IMG/VR virus record: IMGVR_UViG_3300023184_000085
Strand: one strand, 5' to 3'
Source of the DNA: an uncultured virus (IMG/VR IMGVR_UViG_3300023184_000085)
Taxonomy: Duplodnaviria > Heunggongvirae > Uroviricota > Caudoviricetes
DNA: 20,000 nt
The notes below the pieces were generated by a model, which was given only the letters and a program-made list of their open reading frames with translations, did not search any database and was not told the DNA's origin. Positions 5,468 through 17,984 of this stretch are shown here, in pieces. The stretch's first letter is position 1; every line of letters begins with the position of its first letter. The position numbers were made by a program, and so were the translations under genes.

Positions 5468-6061
5468 TTAAAAATGTATTTTGTATTTACGCCTAATCAG
5501 CTTTATTACTTGTATAGCATCATCCACAGCATTATGCGTTACCTTTTCCTTGATGGAAGCTCTATCCAGACATGTTTCCATGTTGGGCAAATGATTGTCT
5601 TTTAAATGATCAAAATATAGTATAGCAGGATCTATCACCCTAGATCGAAACGAAATGTTAGACCAATCATTTTTTTGTATTTTTTCTTGCAAGAACATTA
5701 AATCAAATGTTGCGAAGTTTTTACCAGCAACATTTAAGTATATTTTCTCATTATCATCGTTGTAACCGTTTACGAAAAGAAAATTACTCAATCTTGTGAA
5801 CAATTCTTCTGGATAACAGATGTAAGGCGAATTATTTTCGACTTTGTTCGAAATGTCTAATAATATATTTCTACTATGTATCTTAATCGCTTTAGGATCG
5901 ACACAATAAGGTTCTTTTTTATTTAAATGATAATGAAAAACTGGTAAGTCTTTTATTGGCAAAGGATTCTTCAAATCATCAAGAACTGCTGCAAATTCTA
6001 AAATATCATGATTCTTAGGATCTAATCCGCTTGTTTCAATATCTATAGATGCGTATTTCAT
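5468..6061 (-). CDS. DEDDh 3'-5' exonuclease (DnaQ/oligoribonuclease-like)
   Basis: ExoI IDIETSGL, ExoII GKNFATFD, RVIDP and ExoIII HNAVDD. The start is more likely the ATG at 6061 (AAGGA upstream) than the TTG at 6100. Confidence 0.88.
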   Translation of the reverse strand: MKYASIDIETSGLDPKNHDILEFAAVLDDLKNPLPIKDLPVFHYHLNKKEPYCVDPKAIKIHSRNILLDISNKVENNSPYICYPEELFTRLSNFLFVNGYNDDNEKIYLNVAGKNFATFDLMFLQEKIQKNDWSNISFRSRVIDPAILYFDHLKDNHLPNMETCLDRASIKEKVTHNAVDDAIQVIKLIRRKYKIHF

Positions 6062-6109
6062 CGTGACTTCCTTATCTTGTTGGGCTGTAATAACGAACAA
6101 AAATTACGA

Positions 6110-11318: not shown

Positions 11319-12064
11319 TTTAATTCATTATAGAATAAAACTTCATATATTTTTTTAGTCTTATCGCTAATAGACACTTTGTATATGTTTAAATCTATGT
11401 TTATTTTATTTAAATCTATTAAGTCTTTGCATTTTTCAAAGTAATTTGAAAGAATTAGGTAGTATGGGCTTATTTTTTGTAAAACTACCCACATTTTAAA
11501 TTCATTATTTGATATTTTTTCTTTATACTCCTTGAACCCATAATCTTTTCCTAATTTTTTATTTAAAAATTCATATGTATTTTTTAATCCAAGAATTACT
11601 TTTTCTGTTGAAATAGAAATTGGAGCATTTACATTTTTGATTCCCGATTTCTTTTGTTTGACAAGAGCATCGTATCTGTATTTCCATAGTTTCCATCTTT
11701 TCCATGCTTTTTCGCCAGCCAAACAATTTATGTTTATAAGTGGCTTTTCGTTGTTGTCTATGTTTATTCTTTTTAAAATATCTAATTGAGCGAAAACATA
11801 AAGGTGGTATTCGTCTTCTGATAATTTATCTTTTGTTTCTCGTTGTAGCTTAAAACAATATTTGAAAACGAGAGACTTTCTAGGATCTCCTTTTAGTTTT
11901 CTTCCAGATGCCATATCAGGGAATAGCTTTCTTAAAGAATCGTGCCAACACAAAGTTATTTTGTAGGCTTTTTCTTCTTCTGCTGTCATTTTGTACTTTT
12001 GTATGGCCATTTCGAGCATTTTATTGAATTCGTGAGAAAAGAATGTATCTTTATTATTTAACAT
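11315..12064 (-). CDS. Hypothetical basic protein (249 aa)
   Basis: Long ORF with TAAATA 4 nt upstream of the ATG and a 4-nt overlap with the downstream GT. No family recognised. Confidence 0.8.
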   Translation of the reverse strand: MLNNKDTFFSHEFNKMLEMAIQKYKMTAEEEKAYKITLCWHDSLRKLFPDMASGRKLKGDPRKSLVFKYCFKLQRETKDKLSEDEYHLYVFAQLDILKRINIDNNEKPLININCLAGEKAWKRWKLWKYRYDALVKQKKSGIKNVNAPISISTEKVILGLKNTYEFLNKKLGKDYGFKEYKEKISNNEFKMWVVLQKISPYYLILSNYFEKCKDLIDLNKINIDLNIYKVSISDKTKKIYEVLFYNELK

Positions 12065-12165: not shown

Positions 12166-12187
12166 CGATGAGCTTTTGAAATGTTAA
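12119..12187 (+). pseudogene. Truncated duplicate of the 13050 gene N-terminus (MTSFTQFLEQRDPELYDELLKC*), overlapping the start of the next gene
   Basis: First 16 residues identical to the 13050 product. Stop at 12185-12187 overlaps the ATG at 12181. Confidence 0.7.
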
Positions 12188-12918
12188 AAACTATTAAATG
12201 TGGCTTTATAACATATGCTGATAAAAATTTTTTAAAATCTAAAACAAGAATTTTAGAAGAAGCAAAAAAATTTAGAGAATTTTATAAAATAAAAAGTTTT
12301 GACGTTGAAGATCTGGATGTACATTTTAAAAAAAAATTTAAAAAAATATTAAGTTTTCCAAGAATTGCTGGTTACGGAATATGGAGACCATACATAATTA
12401 AAAAATTTATAATTGATACAAATCCTGATTATTTAGTATATTTAGACGCAGGATCTACGATAAATATCGAAGGGAAAAAAAGATTTTTTGAATATATTAA
12501 AATTTTAAATAATACTGATTGTGGAATAATTTCTTTTGAATTAAAAGGACGATTGCACACAGAAAGATTTTGGACAAATAAAGAAATCTTTGAATATTTT
12601 AATTTATCTTTAGATGGCAAAATAGCATTATCAAATCAATATCTAGATGGTGTATTGATAATGAAAAATAATGTTAATTTAAATAAACTAATAGATCTTT
12701 GGCTTAAATCTGTATATGATAATCCTTATATGTTTACTGATATTTTTAACAATAATCAAAAAGTTTATTTTAAAGATAATCGACATGAACAAAGCGTATT
12801 TAGCATAATAAGAAAAATACATGGATCATTTGTAATCAAAAACGAATCAAATTTTGAATTTTTTGGTTGTGAAGAGTCTTTAAAATATCCTTTTTGGGCT
12901 ACTAGATATCGTGGTTAA
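12181..12918 (+). CDS. Putative GT-A glycosyltransferase-like protein
   Basis: GYGIWRPYII, LVYLDAG and RHEQSVFS motifs. Visibly more AT-rich than its neighbours. Confidence 0.6.
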   Translation: MLKTIKCGFITYADKNFLKSKTRILEEAKKFREFYKIKSFDVEDLDVHFKKKFKKILSFPRIAGYGIWRPYIIKKFIIDTNPDYLVYLDAGSTINIEGKKRFFEYIKILNNTDCGIISFELKGRLHTERFWTNKEIFEYFNLSLDGKIALSNQYLDGVLIMKNNVNLNKLIDLWLKSVYDNPYMFTDIFNNNQKVYFKDNRHEQSVFSIIRKIHGSFVIKNESNFEFFGCEESLKYPFWATRYRG

Positions 12919-12999
12919 ACACACAAGACAATTTACTTAAAACACAATCCAAAATTTTTATATTTATTTAATTAAATATTTGGCGTATATTTGTTCTAT

Positions 13000-13096
13000 T
13001 ATTTAACTCGCCACTCTAAAAAATTAACATTTTAATTAATATATAAATTATGACATCATTTACACAATTTTTAGAACAACGAGATCCAGAACTTTA
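13000..13096. repeat. 97-bp perfect direct repeat, copy 2
   Basis: Identical to 12069-12165 (offset 931 nt). Confidence 0.95.
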
Positions 13097-13910
13097 TAAT
13101 CAACTTATAAATGAAGGGATTTCTGATATTTGGCAAAATACCAAAAATTTCTTTGGTGAATTCTGGAATCGTTTAAAATCGCAAGGAAAAGAATTCCAAG
13201 AAGATGCTGTAAAAATCAAAAAAGCATACGATGAAGGAAAATTAAAACCAAAACAAATAGAAGAAATTAGTGTGGCTTCAAAAAAAGGAGATTGGTGGGG
13301 TGTGGCTAAAATTCTAGCTACTGCTGGAGTTATTGGTTTGTCGGCACTTACTGTTGGTGCTGGTCACGCTTATGCTCCTAATGATATTGGAACTGATTTT
13401 AAATTTTCTCCAGATAATGAAACTTTGATTCAAGGTGAAAAAGATGTACCTAACGACCCAAATGCTACATATGATGTTGCTGCGATCAACAAACTTACAA
13501 TGGACTCTCATAAAGATAAAGATGACTTCCAAACTTCTATAAGAAGTGCAAACCAAGATGATCCAGATGATTTTACAGCTGTACAAAGCAACATAGATCT
13601 TAAATCAAGTCACAGTGAATTAACATCAATGTTGCCAAAAGATATTAAAAATTACATGAAAGAAAAGGGAATCACAGATAATGTACTTACAAATATGGAA
13701 AAAACTGCTTTAAACAAAGATGTTAATTCATTGACGCAATATGATAAAAATACCCTTCGTGGAATAAACAATAAATTAAGTGCTTTTCATTATGTTACTT
13801 CCGACCAAGGAGGGAAACACTTAGCACATGGTTTCTTCGATGCAGAAGGTAAAGCAGGACATATTGATCAATCACCAGATGAAATTTATAATTTAAACAA
13901 AATCAAATAA
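13050..13910 (+). CDS. Hypothetical, probably virion-associated protein with capsid-targeting-like leader and an internal hydrophobic segment
   Basis: MTSFTQFLEQRDPELYNQLINEG leader, WWGVAKILATAGVIGLSALTVGAGHA segment, and TATATA 4 nt before the ATG. Confidence 0.8.
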   Translation: MTSFTQFLEQRDPELYNQLINEGISDIWQNTKNFFGEFWNRLKSQGKEFQEDAVKIKKAYDEGKLKPKQIEEISVASKKGDWWGVAKILATAGVIGLSALTVGAGHAYAPNDIGTDFKFSPDNETLIQGEKDVPNDPNATYDVAAINKLTMDSHKDKDDFQTSIRSANQDDPDDFTAVQSNIDLKSSHSELTSMLPKDIKNYMKEKGITDNVLTNMEKTALNKDVNSLTQYDKNTLRGINNKLSAFHYVTSDQGGKHLAHGFFDAEGKAGHIDQSPDEIYNLNKIK

Positions 13911-13919
13911 ACTATCTCG

Positions 13920-14540
13920 AACTCAATAATTTTTAAAATAAAATCACTCAAAGTTATTACATTAGGGTTGCAATAATTTTAATTAAAGCAACAATGTAAA
14001 TTAATACTTTGAAAACTTTGAATACTGAGATGAAGGCTCTAATCCTTCCATTATTTTATGATTGGCTGCGTTCCCTTGAGTAATTTAATGAAAAAACCTT
14101 GGAGCGTCTTACCCAGATGAAGTCTTAGTTGTTAAACACAATACTGTACGAGCAGTATTCTTCTCCAATGGTCAAGGTAGTCTAGGATAGGAAAAACCAC
14201 CCGAATCTTTAGTTAAACTTAATTAACCTTATGTTTTTCTAGAGCTATCTTAGATTAGGCGACCATAACAAACGCACCATAATGTTAGCGTAACTTTCGG
14301 TTGTTAACTTAAGTTACTAAAGTTTTTAAGTGAAACTATTGTTTCAAATATTAACTCTTAACTTAAGTAACATAATGCTAATGGAAGTAACAATTAAGGT
14401 ATTACTAATTACCTTAATTAAAAATCCATTTCCCCTTAAGTCGGGACCTCGGTACGTAAAAATAATACTATTTAACTAAAAGTAACTGTCTATTGTTTTT
14501 TATGTAAGTGTTTGTTAGATTTCATTTAACAAATATATTT
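13920..14540 (+). ncRNA. Candidate large structured ncRNA and/or replication-origin region
   Basis: No ORF of 60 aa or more. More than 15 nested helices found by eye, several completed by G-U pairs on the + strand (see findings). Ends are approximate. Confidence 0.65.
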
Positions 14541-14551
14541 AGGGAAAATCT

Positions 14552-15856
14552 ATGATTAAGTTCATTTCAGACATAGTTTCGATTAGCGGTACTTCGAGTA
14601 CTTTTTATATAAGTCTAGAAAATGATTCGATTGATTTTACAAACTCTGAAACAAGGCAAATTTTGCGTATTTGTTCTTCTGAGGGAGAATGTAGCATTCC
14701 GATAGAGATAAAGGAATTACCGCTGCTTATTGAGGTTCTAAAAGGCACTGTATTATCAAAGCAATCAAAGGTAGTTGCGTGGAACTGGAAAGACTTCGTT
14801 TCTTATGTTTCATTTCATTTTGGGAAGTTAGTTGAATTTCAAGCTGTAGTACTTGATTTAAAGATTATCGAATCGTATTTTTTCATCAAACAAGAAAAAC
14901 CAGTTAACTATTTGTCTGCTTTGATTCGTTTCAAGAAATTAAAGACAGATAAAGATTGGGAAAAGTTTTACAATATATATAATTCTGTTTATTTGCCTTT
15001 AATCACTTTAGTAATTCCTACGATGGAAAACACGCCTTTACTTGATTGCGAGCTTAAGGATAGGGTATATGCTCATTATTCCATAAACGGACAAGACAAT
15101 GGCAGAATGCTATGTTCTAACGCAAGGATCAAAGGCTACAACCCTCACACGCTATCAAAAGATCAAAAAGGTAAATATAAACCATGCGTTCCTTATAATG
15201 TATTTTTGAATTTTGATTTTAGAAGCATGGAAGTTGCGGTATTGGCTTATCTGGCTAATGACGAAAAGTTATTAGAATTGATTCAAGCACCAGATATTTA
15301 TTCAAGTATATTTGTGGCTATAACAAATAGCGTTGCAGATGACAATTCTAAGATTTTAGCGAAAAAAATATTTTTACCGACTATATATGGCATGTCGGCA
15401 CGGACTCTTGCTGAACAAGCGGATATCCAATTATCTCTTGCCGAACAAATTTGTAGCAATATAAATAAAATATTTTTTAAATCTGTAAATTATGTCAAAG
15501 GCTTCGTGTCTTTGGCTGAATCTCAAGGAACAATAAGTGATTATTTTGGCAAGAGAAGAACATTTACTGAAAATTTCTATAAGGCTCGCAATTTTTGTAT
15601 TCAATCACCTGCATCATTAATTTGTTTAGAAAAATTAGTTCAGTTATGGAAAAAAATACAGCATAAGACTAGAATTTGTTATCATGTACATGATGGTTAT
15701 TATGTATATGCACAAGATGATAATTGGAAAGAAGTGGCTATTGAAGCGAAAAAGGTTCTTGTTGGTGAATCACAAATATGTCCCGGCATGAGATTGAGAG
15801 TGGCTTGTCATGGGGGGACTAAATTAAATAACTTGAAGTCACTCGAAAAGCGATGA
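14552..15856 (+). CDS. polA: Short family A DNA polymerase-like protein with degenerate exonuclease domain and apparently no thumb
   Basis: NGRMLCS (motif 2), DFRSMEVAVLAYLAND (motif A), KILAKKIFLPTIYGMS (motif B), ARNFCIQSPAS (motif 6) and HVHDG (motif C). Confidence 0.88.
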   Translation: MIKFISDIVSISGTSSTFYISLENDSIDFTNSETRQILRICSSEGECSIPIEIKELPLLIEVLKGTVLSKQSKVVAWNWKDFVSYVSFHFGKLVEFQAVVLDLKIIESYFFIKQEKPVNYLSALIRFKKLKTDKDWEKFYNIYNSVYLPLITLVIPTMENTPLLDCELKDRVYAHYSINGQDNGRMLCSNARIKGYNPHTLSKDQKGKYKPCVPYNVFLNFDFRSMEVAVLAYLANDEKLLELIQAPDIYSSIFVAITNSVADDNSKILAKKIFLPTIYGMSARTLAEQADIQLSLAEQICSNINKIFFKSVNYVKGFVSLAESQGTISDYFGKRRTFTENFYKARNFCIQSPASLICLEKLVQLWKKIQHKTRICYHVHDGYYVYAQDDNWKEVAIEAKKVLVGESQICPGMRLRVACHGGTKLNNLKSLEKR

Positions 15857-15860
15857 GTAA

Positions 15861-16424
15861 ATGAAAGAAATATGCAATAATTTTCCAATCACATCAGAAG
15901 AATATTTTGAATTAGATAAAAAATTTGGCAAACTTTGTTATTACGCAGCACATCAATTAAAAAAGAAAAATTCAAAAAACAACTGTGTCGAAGATATAGA
16001 CGATATAAATCAAGAGCTTCAACTTTCTATTATTCGTGCTGGATCTTATTACAAGAGACAGATTTATATTGAAAGTTCACTTGTGTTGGCCAAGGAACAC
16101 ATTAAGAAGACCGTAAAAAATAAAAAGTTAGTTTTAACTTTACAAAATTTGTGGAACAACAGGACTCGTCACGGTGCGAATAGACAAAAATTTGGACCTA
16201 TTCAAGAAAAGTTATTAGACGAATTGATTAAAAAATATGTTCCCAAAGACATCAGACCAAGTAAAACTGAATCGTTAAAAATTGACACAAAGTTTTCGAC
16301 TTATTGTAAAGCAATTGTTTGGAATGGCCAGAAGAGCATGGGCAAGAAAATTACTAGAGAAAAAGCTATTCGATCAGGTTTGGTTAGTTTGTCTGAATAC
16401 GATTATCTTGGTACGAATTTGTAA
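15861..16424 (+). CDS. Sigma70 region-2-like protein (phage sigma factor candidate)
   Basis: DIDDINQELQLSIIRA resembles region 2.2 (DLIQEG.IGL..A) and DTKFSTYCKAIVWN resembles region 2.3 (KFSTYA.WWI). No region 4. Confidence 0.6.
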   Translation: MKEICNNFPITSEEYFELDKKFGKLCYYAAHQLKKKNSKNNCVEDIDDINQELQLSIIRAGSYYKRQIYIESSLVLAKEHIKKTVKNKKLVLTLQNLWNNRTRHGANRQKFGPIQEKLLDELIKKYVPKDIRPSKTESLKIDTKFSTYCKAIVWNGQKSMGKKITREKAIRSGLVSLSEYDYLGTNL

Positions 16425-16481: not shown

Positions 16482-17984
16482 ATGAGTTTGACACCAGAAG
16501 AACAAGCGATAATCGAGTCGTTAACGAATCCAGAAACGCAACAGACGAAGTTTTCATGGGACGATATGTTCCAAAAGAAATTGCTTGGTATGTTGCTTAC
16601 TGATAAATACATGTTGATTCAAAGTATCGACAAACTAAAGCCAGAATATTTTTCAAATGAAATACATGTTCTGATATCGAAAATTTTATTCGACTACTTC
16701 AAAGAAAAGAATTCTATTCCTGATCATTTTATAATGAACACGGAACTCACCTCGAAGATAAAAGACAAAGATAAAACTATTCAGTTGTATCATTGTGCTG
16801 AATTAGGAAGTTTATATAGCTATTATGTTCCCGGACTTGATACGAGAGAATACCTTATCGATAAGGTATTCTACTTTGCTAAAGTACAAGCGGTAAAAGT
16901 AGCATTTCACAATTGTCTTGAAAAAATGAAAAAGGCACCAGAGGAAGAAAAGACTTGGGCGTATGTTTACGAGCAAATGCGTCAGTCTATGTTGATCGAG
17001 CGATCATATGAACCGGGACTTGAATATTTTTTAAATATAGATTTGATGTTTGATCGCATGGAAGATCAGTTCGCTGGTAAGGATAGATTCACATCTGGAT
17101 TTCCTTCTATAGATAACAATTTGACTGGAGGTGGCTTATTTCATGGGCAAATAGCTTCGTGGATAGGATTGCCCGGTACTGGCAAGTCTTTGGCTCTTTC
17201 GAAGGCTGCTGTTGCTAATGTTCTTTTAGGCCATAAAGTTTTATATTTAACTATGGAAATGGATGAGATAGGAATAGCAACAAGATTTACATCTCAATTT
17301 ACAAAGATTGATATAAATTTATTAAAAGAGAACAGAGATCAAGTTAAGAGTACGATTGAAGAATTTAAAAAGGACAAAGAAAATTCTAATCTTTTAATTG
17401 TAAAGCAATTTCCCGGTGGCATGATCGATGTCAATGGTATTAGAGCTTATCACGCTCAATTGCTTCTTAGAGGTTGGAAGCCAGATTTAGTTATTGTCGA
17501 TTATGTCGGAGAAATGAAAGATGACCCGACTGTTAAGAAGTACGAGTCTGCTTATAGAATATTAAGAGATTTAAGAGGTTTCGGGGTCGAACAAAATCAT
17601 TGTACATTTACATGTTTGCAACCAAATCAATCAGCAGCAAAATTAGAATTAAACGAATATATCGACGAATCAAACATAGGAACATCGTTTGATCAATATA
17701 AACCACTTGATGCTTTTTGGTCTATTAATCAAAAAAGTTCCGAGAAGGATGCTGAGATAGGAAGGGTATTTGTTATAAAACACAGAAATGGACAATCAAG
17801 GTTCAATTTTAAAATAGGATTTGATTTATCTATGGGTACATTAGATTTGTATGAAATAACAAATGAAAAATATAAAGAATTATTTAGCACTTCGAATTCT
17901 CAGAAAACAGAAGATTTAAATTTCGATCAGTTTAAAGCTGGTGGTAAAAAGAAAAAATCTGAATCATTCGATGACGAAGAATGA
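16482..17984 (+). CDS. dnaB: Replicative helicase, DnaB/T4 gp41-like
   Basis: SGFPSID..L.GG, Walker A GLPGTGKS, YLTMEM, IVDY, QPNQ and KHRNG. AGGAG SD upstream. Confidence 0.92.
   Translation: MSLTPEEQAIIESLTNPETQQTKFSWDDMFQKKLLGMLLTDKYMLIQSIDKLKPEYFSNEIHVLISKILFDYFKEKNSIPDHFIMNTELTSKIKDKDKTIQLYHCAELGSLYSYYVPGLDTREYLIDKVFYFAKVQAVKVAFHNCLEKMKKAPEEEKTWAYVYEQMRQSMLIERSYEPGLEYFLNIDLMFDRMEDQFAGKDRFTSGFPSIDNNLTGGGLFHGQIASWIGLPGTGKSLALSKAAVANVLLGHKVLYLTMEMDEIGIATRFTSQFTKIDINLLKENRDQVKSTIEEFKKDKENSNLLIVKQFPGGMIDVNGIRAYHAQLLLRGWKPDLVIVDYVGEMKDDPTVKKYESAYRILRDLRGFGVEQNHCTFTCLQPNQSAAKLELNEYIDESNIGTSFDQYKPLDAFWSINQKSSEKDAEIGRVFVIKHRNGQSRFNFKIGFDLSMGTLDLYEITNEKYKELFSTSNSQKTEDLNFDQFKAGGKKKKSESFDDEE

What the first reader, a model, noticed from the sequence alone, without database searches (positions are those of the whole stretch)
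13911..15856. Candidate RNA-protein system: ~600-nt structured RNA directly upstream of a thumbless family A polymerase
SEEN: the largest non-coding gap in the window is packed with helices and ends at the RBS of a co-oriented 434-aa PolA-like gene. That protein keeps its catalytic motifs but seems to have lost the thumb and the exonuclease sites. KNOWN: an ncRNA followed by a polymerase is the layout of retrons and several defence-associated reverse transcriptases. In ColE1 replication, a ~550-nt folded RNA is the primer extended by Pol I. I do not know of a described PolA with a dedicated cis-encoded RNA. INFERENCE: the RNA may be the primer, template or scaffold for this enzyme, possibly replacing the thumb's grip on primer/template.
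Basis: partly seen in the sequence, partly recalled or inferred. Interest (0 to 1): 0.9.

Follow-up and report, generated by a model that had tools for sequence, protein, structure and literature searches.

The report
Knotted RNA before thumbless phage polymerase
The gene-free stretch holds a real, intricately folded RNA of about 450 bases that matches no catalogued RNA family. It sits just upstream of a stripped-down DNA polymerase gene in many large freshwater phages, and its job is still unknown.

Summary
Window 13911-14551 is non-coding in all six frames and is the largest gap in the window. It ends at the ribosome-binding site of a 434-aa family A polymerase.

The gap encodes a + strand RNA at about 14020-14470. 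It has a three-way junction, a three-helix stack and three long-range pseudoknots. Compensatory base changes support these in 12-13 phage lineages whose polymerases are only 33-40% identical. Rfam and ARAGORN find nothing.

An RNA-first DNA search hit 11 contigs, and all 11 carry the polymerase just downstream. Lake metatranscriptome contigs from four studies cover the RNA.

The polymerase keeps motifs A, B and C. About nine residues stand where the roughly 110-residue thumb should be, and the N-terminal exonuclease-like fold is small. Four of five large relatives also encode a split DnaE-type polymerase, so this PolA is probably accessory.

No tool here tests the proposed role as primer, template or thumb substitute. 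My best reading is that the RNA is the 5' part of the polA transcript and acts on or with the replication module. The RNA family seems undescribed in print, although earlier notes of this scan report it from other genomes.

The parts
13911..14551 (.). Non-coding gap, 641 nt, the largest in the window
   Evidence: No ORF of 50 aa or more. All three stop codons occur in all six frames. No Rfam family and no tRNA or tmRNA.
14020..14470 (+). Conserved structured RNA, about 450 nt. The ends are approximate.
   Evidence: Conserved blocks run from ACUGAGAUG (14024-14032) to the CUCGGU site (14448-14453) in alignments A2 and A8. Metatranscriptome contigs start at 13977, 14020 and 14026 and reach 14530. 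The + strand z-score is -6.0.
14032..14048 (+). 5' hairpin GAAGG/CCUUC after ACUGAGAUG
   Evidence: Read by eye in sequences. The stem changes to GGAUG/CAUCC, GGGUG/CACCC, GGGCA/UGCUC or UGGAG/CUCCA in other lineages. It is absent in the L038 clade, where a TTGACA-17-TATAAT promoter sits instead.
14049..14090 (+). Hairpin b, with the conserved loop GG..GUA..CC at 14062-14075
   Evidence: The stem has changes on both sides at 9 of 9 pairs but only 65% of cells pair, because the register is imperfect in A7. The loop strand forms pseudoknot A.
14067..14276 (+). Pseudoknot A: loop UGCGU (14067-14071) pairs with ACGCA (14272-14276)
   Evidence: In the MAFFT-only alignment A8, 4 of 6 pairs change on both sides. 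The states are CGUACU/AGUACG, UGUACU/AGUACA, GCGCU/AGCGC, GUGCU/AGCAC and AGUAUC/GAUACU.
14098..14168 (+). Three-way junction. Outer helix 14098-14104 with 14163-14168; H1 14105-14119; H2 about 14129-14141 (weak here); H3 14140-14159.
   Evidence: RNAalifold gives 23 pairs, 14 of them with compensatory changes. Cells paired are 96.7-100% in A7 and 85.7-100% in A8, with 0 of 500 shuffles as high.
14149..14451 (+). Pseudoknot B: H3 loop CGAG (14149-14152) pairs with CUCG (14448-14451)
   Evidence: Three covarying states occur across lineages: CGGG/CCCG, CGAG/CUCG and CAAG/CUUG.
14168..14266 (+). Stack Pz (14168-14173 with 14261-14266), Px (14180-14190 with 14245-14255) and Py hairpin (14206-14244), with purine-rich internal loops
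   Evidence: Each of 12 sequences, folded on its own with only the pseudoknot C strand held open, gives the same Pz-Px-Py shape despite different sequences.
14200..14445 (+). Pseudoknot C: CCCGA (14200-14204, in the Px-Py internal loop) pairs with UCGGG (14441-14445)
   Evidence: A8 shows 93% of cells paired and 2 of 6 pairs changed on both sides. The states are GCUGAC/GUCAGC, GCAGA/UCUGC, GCCGAC/GUCGGC and CCCGA/UCGGG.
14277..14440 (+). Variable 3' domain. Hairpins at 14307-14316 with 14359-14368 and at 14392-14401 with 14410-14419, flanked by AAUGGA (14380-14385) and UCCAUU (14425-14430).
   Evidence: Inverted repeats I14 and I15. A terminal hairpin in the same place occurs in other lineages with quite different sequence (read by eye). 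No relatives of intermediate distance were available, so covariation for the window's own version is untested.
14452..14551 (+). AT-rich spacer (GC 0.23) with the ribosome-binding site AGGGAAAA at 14541-14548
   Evidence: No terminator-like site here. The distance from the pseudoknot B site to the ATG is 83-165 nt in 10 of 14 loci, with outliers of 44, 163, 229 and 233 nt. One RNA-library contig spans 14380-14530.
14552..15856 (+). Compact thumbless family A DNA polymerase, 434 aa
   Evidence: PF00476 E 2e-23. AlphaFold2 pLDDT 94.5. Klenow-type fold. About 9 residues in place of the thumb. A family of 56 proteins, nearly all about 420-480 aa.
16482..17984 (+). DnaB-like replicative helicase (context)
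   Evidence: phrog_19 E 7e-52; PF03796.
5468..6100 (-). DEDDh (epsilon/RNase T-type) 3'-5' exonuclease (context)
   Evidence: PF00929 E 6e-11; PolC and epsilon NCBIfam models; phrog_192.

Best explanation
The gap encodes a member of an uncatalogued family of large (about 380-480 nt), triple-pseudoknotted RNAs. The family is always found directly 5' of, and co-oriented with, a compact thumbless PolA in large freshwater phages.

Shown:
- The fold, which comprises hairpin b, a three-way junction, a Pz-Px-Py stack and pseudoknots A, B and C.
- Its conservation by compensatory change.
- Its strand.
- Its fixed place in front of polA.
- Its presence in RNA libraries.

Inferred: it is transcribed from a promoter at its own 5' edge and read through into polA, because no terminator is found and the spacer length is similar in most loci. 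That would make it the 5' part of the replication-module transcript. From there it would act in cis, as a protein-bound or otherwise sensing leader that sets when and how much PolA and the downstream replication genes are made.

My odds: about 0.95 that the RNA is real, about 0.6 that it is co-transcribed with polA, and about 0.4 that its main job is cis control of the module.
For: Structure:
- RNAalifold gives 23 pairs, 14 compensatory.
- On A7 (13 sequences, fitted to the model) 88.6% of cells pair and 28 of 34 pairs are compensatory. No shuffle of 500 reached this, and slid controls gave 41-46%.
- On A8 (12 sequences, MAFFT only, pseudoknots included) 93.3% pair and 23 of 37 pairs are compensatory. 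No shuffle of 500 reached this, and slid controls gave 35-46%.
- All 12 sequences fold alone into the same middle domain.

Strand:
- All covariance-model hits at E below 1e-3 lie on the + strand.
- G-U is the commonest pair at one H1 position, 7 of 12.
- z = -6.0 on the + strand against -2.8 on the - strand.

Linkage to polA:
- Model R2 hits 16 of 52 sources at E of 2e-5 or lower, all just upstream of polA.
- The H3-loop, 3'-site and pseudoknot C signature occurs in 19 of 52 upstream regions. It occurs in 0 of 52 in each of three controls.
- RNA-first pattern scans of IMG/VR gave 7 of 7 and 11 of 11 contigs with the PolA downstream. Two of those contigs were not in my PolA-derived set.
- The RNA occurs once per genome in G003 and G006.

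Co-transcription:
- Four L038-clade loci have a consensus sigma-70 promoter at the RNA's 5' edge.
- No terminator-like site lies between the RNA and the ATG in the window.
- I saw no clear terminator by eye in 14 spacers.
- An RNA-library contig spans 14380-14530.

Expression: contigs from 4 metatranscriptome runs of 4 studies lie on 13977-14530.
Against: - No transcript ends were mapped. The runs are contigs, which cannot show starts, ends or strand, and DNA carry-over in RNA libraries is not excluded.
- A fold with three long-range pseudoknots over 450 nt is far more elaborate than known cis-regulatory leaders. It resembles ribozymes and RNP scaffolds instead.
- No ligand, protein site or expression platform, such as pairing that hides the ribosome-binding site, was identified.
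- In the window the sigma-70 scan found no more promoter-like sites than shuffles give (8 against 8.9), and no promoter is evident at the RNA's 5' edge here.
- Adjacency and co-transcription are equally typical of partner RNAs such as retron, omega and tracr RNAs.
- At least 5 of 52 PolA loci have a protein gene abutting polA, so the leader is not universal.
Confidence: 0.4

Rival explanations
1. Partner RNA of the polymerase. The RNA binds the thumbless PolA and forms a ribonucleoprotein. It would serve as a scaffold that holds the primer-template in place of the thumb, or as the enzyme's dedicated primer or template.
For: - The thumb is missing.
- The RNA's architecture is as complex as that of ribozymes and RNP RNAs.
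- The linkage to PolA persists although the polymerases are only 33-40% identical and the upstream neighbour varies.
- The PolA is probably accessory. Four of five large relatives encode a split DnaE-type polymerase and none a PolB, and the window carries an epsilon-type exonuclease.
- From general knowledge, not a call: structured RNAs encoded just 5' of a nucleic-acid enzyme are usually its partners, as with retron msr-msd, omega RNA and tracrRNA.
Against: - No binding or activity data exist, and no tool here tests RNA-protein contact.
- Thumbless PolA genes of the same family exist with a protein gene, not an RNA, directly upstream: L001, L063, L068, L073 and L074. The RNA could still lie elsewhere in those genomes.
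- No template-like repeat or exposed 3' primer feature was recognised.
Confidence: 0.25
2. RNA-primed origin of the ColE1 kind. The transcript folds, forms a persistent hybrid in the AT-rich DNA downstream, and is extended by the PolA. The phage DnaE-type replicase and the DnaB-like helicase then take over.
For: - The RNA sits in the replication module beside PolA and a DnaB-like helicase.
- A strong promoter points into an AT-rich spacer of GC 0.23.
- PolA coexists with DnaE in 4 of 5 large relatives.
- In the window the cumulative GC skew reaches its minimum near 12,000 and rises from there on.
- In the 381-kb relative G003 the skew is flat up to about 72 kb and then rises steadily. The RNA lies at 70.3 kb, where the genes switch to almost only the + strand.
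Against: - The skew follows gene orientation, so it is not independent evidence. The left arm of G003 is flat rather than negative.
- No iterons or DnaA-box-like repeats were found. The direct repeats in the gap are short two-copy families.
- No antisense regulator was seen. Promoter-like sites on the - strand are no more frequent than in shuffles.
- A primer does not obviously need three conserved pseudoknots.
Confidence: 0.15
3. A free-standing ornate RNA with a function of its own, like GOLLD or ROOL. It could be an RNA-only assembly or a ribozyme. Its place before polA would be mere synteny or shared timing of expression.
For: It is a large, highly structured, phage-borne RNA from lake habitats with no recognisable regulatory platform. 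Some relatives have their own promoter.
Against: - It does not match GOLLD, ROOL, OLE, raiA or HEARO models, even at E up to 10.
- The adjacency to polA is invariant wherever the RNA was found, including in RNA-first searches. This is tighter than expected for an unrelated gene.
- No terminator follows it.
Confidence: 0.12
4. Not an RNA gene. It would instead be an intron splitting polA, a decayed gene, a mobile element, or a DNA-level hairpin cluster.
For: - The ORF upstream (13050-13910) is replaced in the 99%-identical relative G001, so the left border is a site of gene turnover.
- A weak tRNA-like match of 20.9 bits lies at 13990-14056.
Against: - PolA homologs align from residue 1 and have their own ribosome-binding site.
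- No group I or II intron match.
- No repeat copies of the element elsewhere: blastn against 'phages' found none, and there is a single copy in G003 and G006.
- Strand-specific covariation with G-U pairs and pseudoknots.
- No open frame under any stop reassignment.
Confidence: 0.03

Closest known systems
ColE1 primer RNA II with DNA polymerase I
   Same: A folded transcript several hundred nucleotides long whose structure matters, functionally tied to a family A polymerase. A second, C-family replicase is available for hand-over (DnaE in 4 of 5 relatives).
   Different: ColE1 RNA II is plasmid-borne, uses the host Pol I and is controlled by the antisense RNA I. It is not known for long-range pseudoknots. 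This description of ColE1 comes from general knowledge, not from a call. Here no antisense partner, R-loop or origin is shown.
GOLLD, ROOL, OLE and raiA: large ornate bacterial and phage RNAs of unknown or emerging function (PMC12286853, search listing and abstract only)
   Same: Large, heavily structured, phage-associated, found in lake metagenomes, function unknown.
   Different: No match to their Rfam models. This RNA is bound to one gene neighbour, polA, and is probably co-transcribed with it.
Partner RNAs encoded 5' of a nucleic-acid enzyme (retron msr-msd with RT, HEARO/omega RNA with IscB)
   Same: Layout: a structured non-coding RNA directly upstream of, and co-oriented with, a polymerase or nuclease gene.
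   Different: The enzyme here is a family A DNA polymerase, not a reverse transcriptase or nuclease. There are no retron-type flanking inverted repeats and no HEARO match. No complex is shown.
divPolA1 of Flavobacterium phage vB_FspM_immuto and relatives (PMC11348598, section 13 read)
   Same: A phage PolA of about 440 aa with conserved palm motifs, a truncated thumb and an inactivated exonuclease domain. It is encoded in addition to a regular polymerase and is followed by replication genes.
   Different: It is only marginally similar in sequence to the window's PolA (BLASTP E 0.014) and was not found by tblastn. In MW353176 the last annotated gene ends 56 nt before the record's end, just before polA if the genome is read as circular, so no RNA-sized gap lies there. 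The section I read mentions no RNA.
T4 gene 43 translational operator (DNA polymerase autoregulation)
   Same: An RNA element in the leader of a phage DNA polymerase mRNA that could be bound by the polymerase itself.
   Different: The T4 operator is a single short hairpin next to the ribosome-binding site, in a family B polymerase gene (general knowledge). This element is about ten times larger and knotted.

Membership tests
Any Rfam 15 family (including GOLLD, ROOL, OLE, raiA, HEARO, group I/II introns, RNase P, tmRNA, riboswitches) | Score at or above the family's gathering threshold | tested here: not met
   No hits in the whole window. At E up to 10 on 13700-14800 only three chance-level hits appeared, the best a tRNA match of 20.9 bits against a threshold of 29. 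Nine related loci gave one miRNA hit at E 0.17.
tRNA / tmRNA | Cloverleaf, or tRNA-like domain plus tag reading frame | tested here: not met
   ARAGORN found no genes in the window and none in 25 related loci.
Self-splicing intron in polA | Flanking exons that join into one conserved reading frame | tested here: not met
   PolA homologs cover residues 1-434 as free-standing proteins of about 430 aa. PolA has its own ribosome-binding site. The upstream ORF differs in the 99%-identical relative G001.
Retron (msr-msd + RT) | Adjacent reverse transcriptase of the retron clade | tested here: not met
   The adjacent enzyme is PF00476 DNA_pol_A.
Retron (msr-msd + RT) | Flanking a1/a2 inverted repeats and a branching G | not tested
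   The inverted-repeat list showed no long terminal pair. I did not search for this specifically.
ColE1-type primer RNA | The transcript forms a persistent RNA-DNA hybrid at an origin and is extended by Pol I | not testable with these tools
   Only indirect context is available: the AT-rich spacer, the strand and skew switch and DnaE in relatives.
ColE1-type primer RNA | Antisense RNA I regulator from the opposite strand | tested here: inconclusive
   Promoter-like sites on the - strand are present but no more frequent than in shuffles.
Family A DNA polymerase | Palm and fingers with motifs A, B and C | tested here: met
   PF00476 E 2e-23. Alignment to Taq motifs. D222, K271, G280, H380 and D381 are invariant in 32 sequences. 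Klenow-type fold.
Family A DNA polymerase | Helical thumb subdomain between the first palm helix and the TGR-type motif | tested here: not met
   About 9 residues stand where Klentaq has about 110. The model shows no thumb helices after helix 136-159.
divPolA1 (PMC11348598) | Sequence relationship to the immuto-phage protein | tested here: inconclusive
   BLASTP E 0.014 over 107 residues around motif C. It has the same length class and the same losses, so it may be a distant relative or a parallel reduction.

The most novel reading that the evidence does not exclude
The RNA and the thumbless PolA work as one machine, a family A DNA polymerase ribonucleoprotein. The knotted RNA would grip or supply the primer-template. 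It could act as a thumb substitute, as a built-in primer at an RNA-primed origin with hand-over to the phage DnaE replicase, or even as a template for RNA-directed DNA synthesis. That would be the first DNA polymerase I-type enzyme with a dedicated cis-encoded RNA subunit.
Probability: 0.25. Interest if true: 0.92.

Novelty: new variant of a known kind. Interest (0 to 1): 0.8.

Why it matters
Large RNAs with several conserved long-range pseudoknots are rare, and most have turned out to be ribozymes or cores of ribonucleoproteins.

This one is widespread in large freshwater phages and is absent from Rfam. It is tied to one gene, a DNA polymerase that has lost the part that normally holds the DNA.

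If the two work together, it would be a new way to build or start a replication machine. If the RNA is a leader, it would be by far the most elaborate control element known for a polymerase gene.

Either way it is a well-defined target. The fold, the covarying pairs to mutate and the partner gene are now all specified.

Tried and rejected
- **Recoding.** All six frames of the gap hold all three stop codons.
- **Intron, tRNA, tmRNA and RNase P readings.** No Rfam or ARAGORN support.
- **DNA similarity of the gap in 'phages'.** None found.
- **First RNA-first pattern with variable gaps.** I set one gap too long, so it missed the true copies. Its 48 hits were chance matches and none had a PolA. 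It carries no information.
- **Metagenome-contig scan for PolA relatives of 60-67% identity.** Only near-identical copies came back. The window's own 3' domain (14277-14440) therefore has no covariation test.
- **Uncovered stretch in the RNA runs.** The stretch 12500-13970 is without cover in all four runs except for 43 nt.
- **Contig depths.** RNA contigs had depths of 2-9 and coding contigs 2-7.5. These cannot rank the RNA against the mRNA.
- **GC skew as an origin test.** The inflection coincides with the locus in the window and in G003, but it tracks gene orientation. It stays ambiguous.
- **Polymerase-like motifs in the L001/L063 upstream protein.** I thought I saw them in the ~390-aa protein that replaces the RNA there (58% identical to each other). 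Neither phmmer against PDB nor hhalign against the PolA profile supports this.
- **Equating this PolA with the published divPolA1.** Only marginal similarity.
- **Covariance models R1 and R2.** They detect only some subfamilies. Divergent versions seen by eye in L071, L086, L069, L031/L013 and L067 were not confirmed statistically. L024, L029, L079 and L080 passed the signature scan.
Full report
**The observation.**
- The window looks like the replication region of a large phage with GC near 30%. It carries Dda-like and SNF2-type helicases, an SbcD-like nuclease, a DnaB-like helicase, a DNA methylase and glycosyltransferases.
- Positions 13911-14551 form the largest ORF-free stretch. All six frames hold TAA, TAG and TGA stops, so no stop reassignment opens the gap.
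- The + strand folds much better than shuffles (z = -6.0). The - strand gives z = -2.8, with 20 shuffles each.
- The gap ends at AGGGAAAA-N3-ATG of ORF 14552-15856.

**The polymerase.**
- The 434-aa product matches PF00476 at E 2e-23, but only from profile position 103 onward. Motifs A, B and C align to Taq and are invariant in 32 family members.
- The AlphaFold2 model built on that alignment has pLDDT 94.5. It matches Klenow, Bst, Pol nu and Pol theta chains at E 1e-17 to 5e-20.
- In the profile alignment to Klentaq, the helix "Y..V..PL..V.P..E" aligns to chain 136-157 and the next aligned block starts at chain 268. About nine residues therefore stand where the thumb of about 110 residues lies. 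The first block scores weakly alone. The model agrees, since helix 136-159 is followed directly by palm strands.
- Residues 1-110 form a small alpha/beta fold in the position of the exonuclease domain. No exonuclease family matches, and I did not settle the state of its carboxylates.
- The protein belongs to a family of 56 database clusters, nearly all of about 420-480 aa. Some come from contigs of up to 673 kb.
- In five large relatives (225-533 kb) there is one such PolA each and no PolB. Four of the five carry a split DnaE-type Pol III alpha.
- The window itself carries an epsilon/RNase T-type exonuclease. This PolA is therefore probably an accessory enzyme, not the main replicase.

**The published relative.** A paper on phage polymerases describes "divPolA1". 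It is a phage PolA of about 440 aa with a truncated thumb and a dead exonuclease, found beside a regular polymerase (PMC11348598, section 13 read). The immuto-phage example is only marginally similar to the window's protein (E 0.014). It has no RNA-sized gap before it, if that linear record is read as circular. The 2023 PolA reclassification mentions "broken thumb" clades but no thumbless one, in the passages I saw (PMC10201439).

**The RNA is real and conserved.**
- Close relatives (99% identical) keep the gap but carry a different upstream ORF.
- Of 124 IMG/VR loci that encode the PolA family, 80 were fetched. By my hand count, 51 of the 77 measurable loci have 200 nt or more without a 60-aa ORF upstream of polA. 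Many of these loci are redundant, and some short "ORFs" are probably spurious.
- blastn of the gap against these loci gave one distant hit, to L038 at 70% over 78 nt (E 4e-4), at the same distance from polA.
- All-against-all comparison showed the same block of about 75 nt in many lineages. Reading the sequences showed matching hairpins with different sequences.

**The fold, in window coordinates.**
- ACUGAGAUG at 14024-14032, then a hairpin at 14032-14048.
- Hairpin b at 14049-14090, with the loop GG..GUA..CC.
- An A-rich linker, then a three-way junction at 14098-14168 with helices H1, H2 and H3.
- A stack Pz-Px-Py at 14168-14266.
- A variable 3' domain at 14277-14440.
- The strands UCGGG (14441-14445) and CUCG (14448-14451).
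- Three pseudoknots tie these parts together:
  - A: the hairpin b loop (14067-14071) with ACGCA (14272-14276).
  - B: the H3 loop CGAG (14149-14152) with CUCG (14448-14451).
  - C: CCCGA (14200-14204), in the Px-Py internal loop, with UCGGG (14441-14445).

**Tests of the fold.**
- RNAalifold on nine sequences gives 23 junction pairs, 14 of them compensatory.
- On the 13-sequence alignment fitted to the model (A7), 88.6% of cells pair and 28 of 34 pairs change on both sides. No shuffle of 500 reached this. Slid controls gave 41-46% paired, and the covariation score was 0.53 against about 0.1.
- The structure-blind MAFFT alignment of 12 full-length RNAs (A8) includes the pseudoknots. There 93.3% of cells pair and 23 of 37 pairs are compensatory, with 0 of 500 shuffles as high and slid controls at 35-46%.
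- Pseudoknot A shows five sequence states and pseudoknot B three: CGGG/CCCG, CGAG/CUCG and CAAG/CUUG.
- MAFFT put Pz and Px out of register for half the rows, so I tested them differently. Each of the 12 sequences, folded alone with only the six pseudoknot C bases held open, gives the same Pz-Px-Py shape.
- G-U pairs on the + strand and the strand of all significant model hits indicate a + strand RNA.

**Distribution and linkage.**
- Model R1 found 16 of 56 sources at E of 1.4e-4 or lower. Model R2 found 16 of 52 sources at E of 2e-5 or lower. Every hit was on the + strand just upstream of polA.
- I wrote a signature scan for an H3 hairpin with an ACRRG loop, a complementary CYYGKU site 120-480 nt downstream, and a pseudoknot C complement. 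It is positive in 19 of 52 upstream regions. It is positive in 0 of 52 for each of three controls: the reverse strand and both strands of the coding sequence.
- That scan adds L024, L029, L079 and L080 to the model hits.
- Searching IMG/VR with RNA motifs alone returned 7 and 11 contigs. All carry the PolA about 510-580 nt downstream, including two contigs outside my PolA-derived set.
- In G003 and G006 the model finds one copy per genome, at polA.
- At least five lineages have a protein gene abutting polA instead: L001, L063, L068, L073 and L074.

**Expression and ends.**
- Contigs from four lake or freshwater metatranscriptome runs, from four studies, lie on the RNA. They cover 13977-14290, 14263-14413, 14026-14181, 14020-14277, 14233-14383 and 14380-14530. 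Others lie on parts of polA and the next genes.
- Three contigs begin at 13977, 14020 and 14026, which is a weak hint of a 5' end there. Contigs cannot prove transcription, strand or ends.
- In four L038-clade loci (L038, L055, L034, L019) a sigma-70-type promoter, TTGACA or TTGACT, 17 nt, then TATAAT, TACAAT or TAGAAT, sits a few bases before the RNA.
- No terminator-like site lies between the RNA and the ATG in the window, and I saw none clearly in 14 spacers.
- The distance from the pseudoknot B site to the ATG is 83-165 nt in 10 of 14 loci.

**What it is not.** No Rfam 15 family matches in the window or in nine relatives. There is no tRNA or tmRNA. It is not an intron and not a repeat element.

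**Search for prior description.** Five full-text searches found no description of an RNA before a phage polA. They covered structured RNA with polymerase and phage, PolA thumb loss, huge phages with pseudoknots, the term "thumbless", and GOLLD/ROOL with polymerase. The library misses most subscription journals.

**Earlier notes of this scan.** Six notes report what appears to be the same RNA family in other genomes. They describe three pseudoknots, 370-500 nt and an unknown function. I had already found the junction and pseudoknot B. Their mention of three pseudoknots led me to look for the others, which I then tested myself.

**How it most likely works.**
- The fold, its conservation, its strand and its linkage to polA are shown. 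Everything about function is inference.
- I put cis action as the 5' part of the replication-gene transcript first, at about 0.4. The reasons are the promoter at its edge, the lack of a terminator, the similar spacer length in most loci and the bridging contig.
- The fold is far more elaborate than known leaders, and the neighbouring enzyme has lost its DNA-gripping thumb. An RNA-PolA particle (0.25) or a ColE1-like RNA-primed origin (0.15) therefore remain live.
- The origin reading gains only indirect support. DnaE is present in relatives. The locus also sits where the genes switch to one strand and the cumulative GC skew starts to rise, both in the window and in G003. That pattern follows gene orientation.

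**Verdict.** The element is an apparently unpublished large RNA family with a specific gene partner, and the pairs to mutate and the assays to run are now clear.

Noticed in passing
window 13050-13910 and 12181-12918; G001 (L002 954-1496): The two ORFs upstream of the RNA (245 and 286 aa, no family match) are replaced by one unrelated 180-aa ORF in a relative that is 99% identical from 13929 onward. The RNA's 5' border is therefore a hotspot of gene turnover.
   Followed up: partly
L001 4781-5944 and L063 1796-2971: In two lineages without the RNA, a ~390-aa protein overlaps the start of polA by 4 nt. The two copies are 58% identical. By eye it has D..SQ and IHDS-like strings that recall polymerase motifs. 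Pfam, phmmer against PDB and hhalign against the PolA profile gave nothing.
   Followed up: partly
G003, G004, G005, G006 (relatives' genomes): A DnaE-type Pol III alpha is encoded as two separate ORFs of about 450-480 aa and about 460-930 aa in four large phage records. The 533-kb record G002 (CheckV 100% complete, classed as provirus) has none and no PolB.
   Followed up: no
window about 12000; G003 about 70-72 kb: The RNA-polA locus lies at or just after the point where genes switch to almost only the + strand and the cumulative GC skew begins a steady rise.
   Followed up: partly
window 13990-14056: A weak tRNA-like match of 20.9 bits, below the threshold of 29. Its T-arm-like part is the RNA's 5' hairpin GAAGGCUCUAAUCCUUC. 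The terminator scan also flagged the same hairpin because of the U-rich run after it.
   Followed up: partly
L019, L034, L035, L038, L040, L045, L048 (about 12 nt after the pseudoknot B site): A conserved GAUUGUAAA motif sits in the loop of a short A/U-rich hairpin just 3' of the last pseudoknot strand. The window has a longer A/U hairpin there instead, at about 14455-14507.
   Followed up: no
window 15861-16424: The 187-aa ORF directly after polA has no family match apart from sub-threshold MOM1-like and other hits. Earlier scan notes call the gene in this position sigma-like in other genomes. I could not confirm that here.
   Followed up: partly
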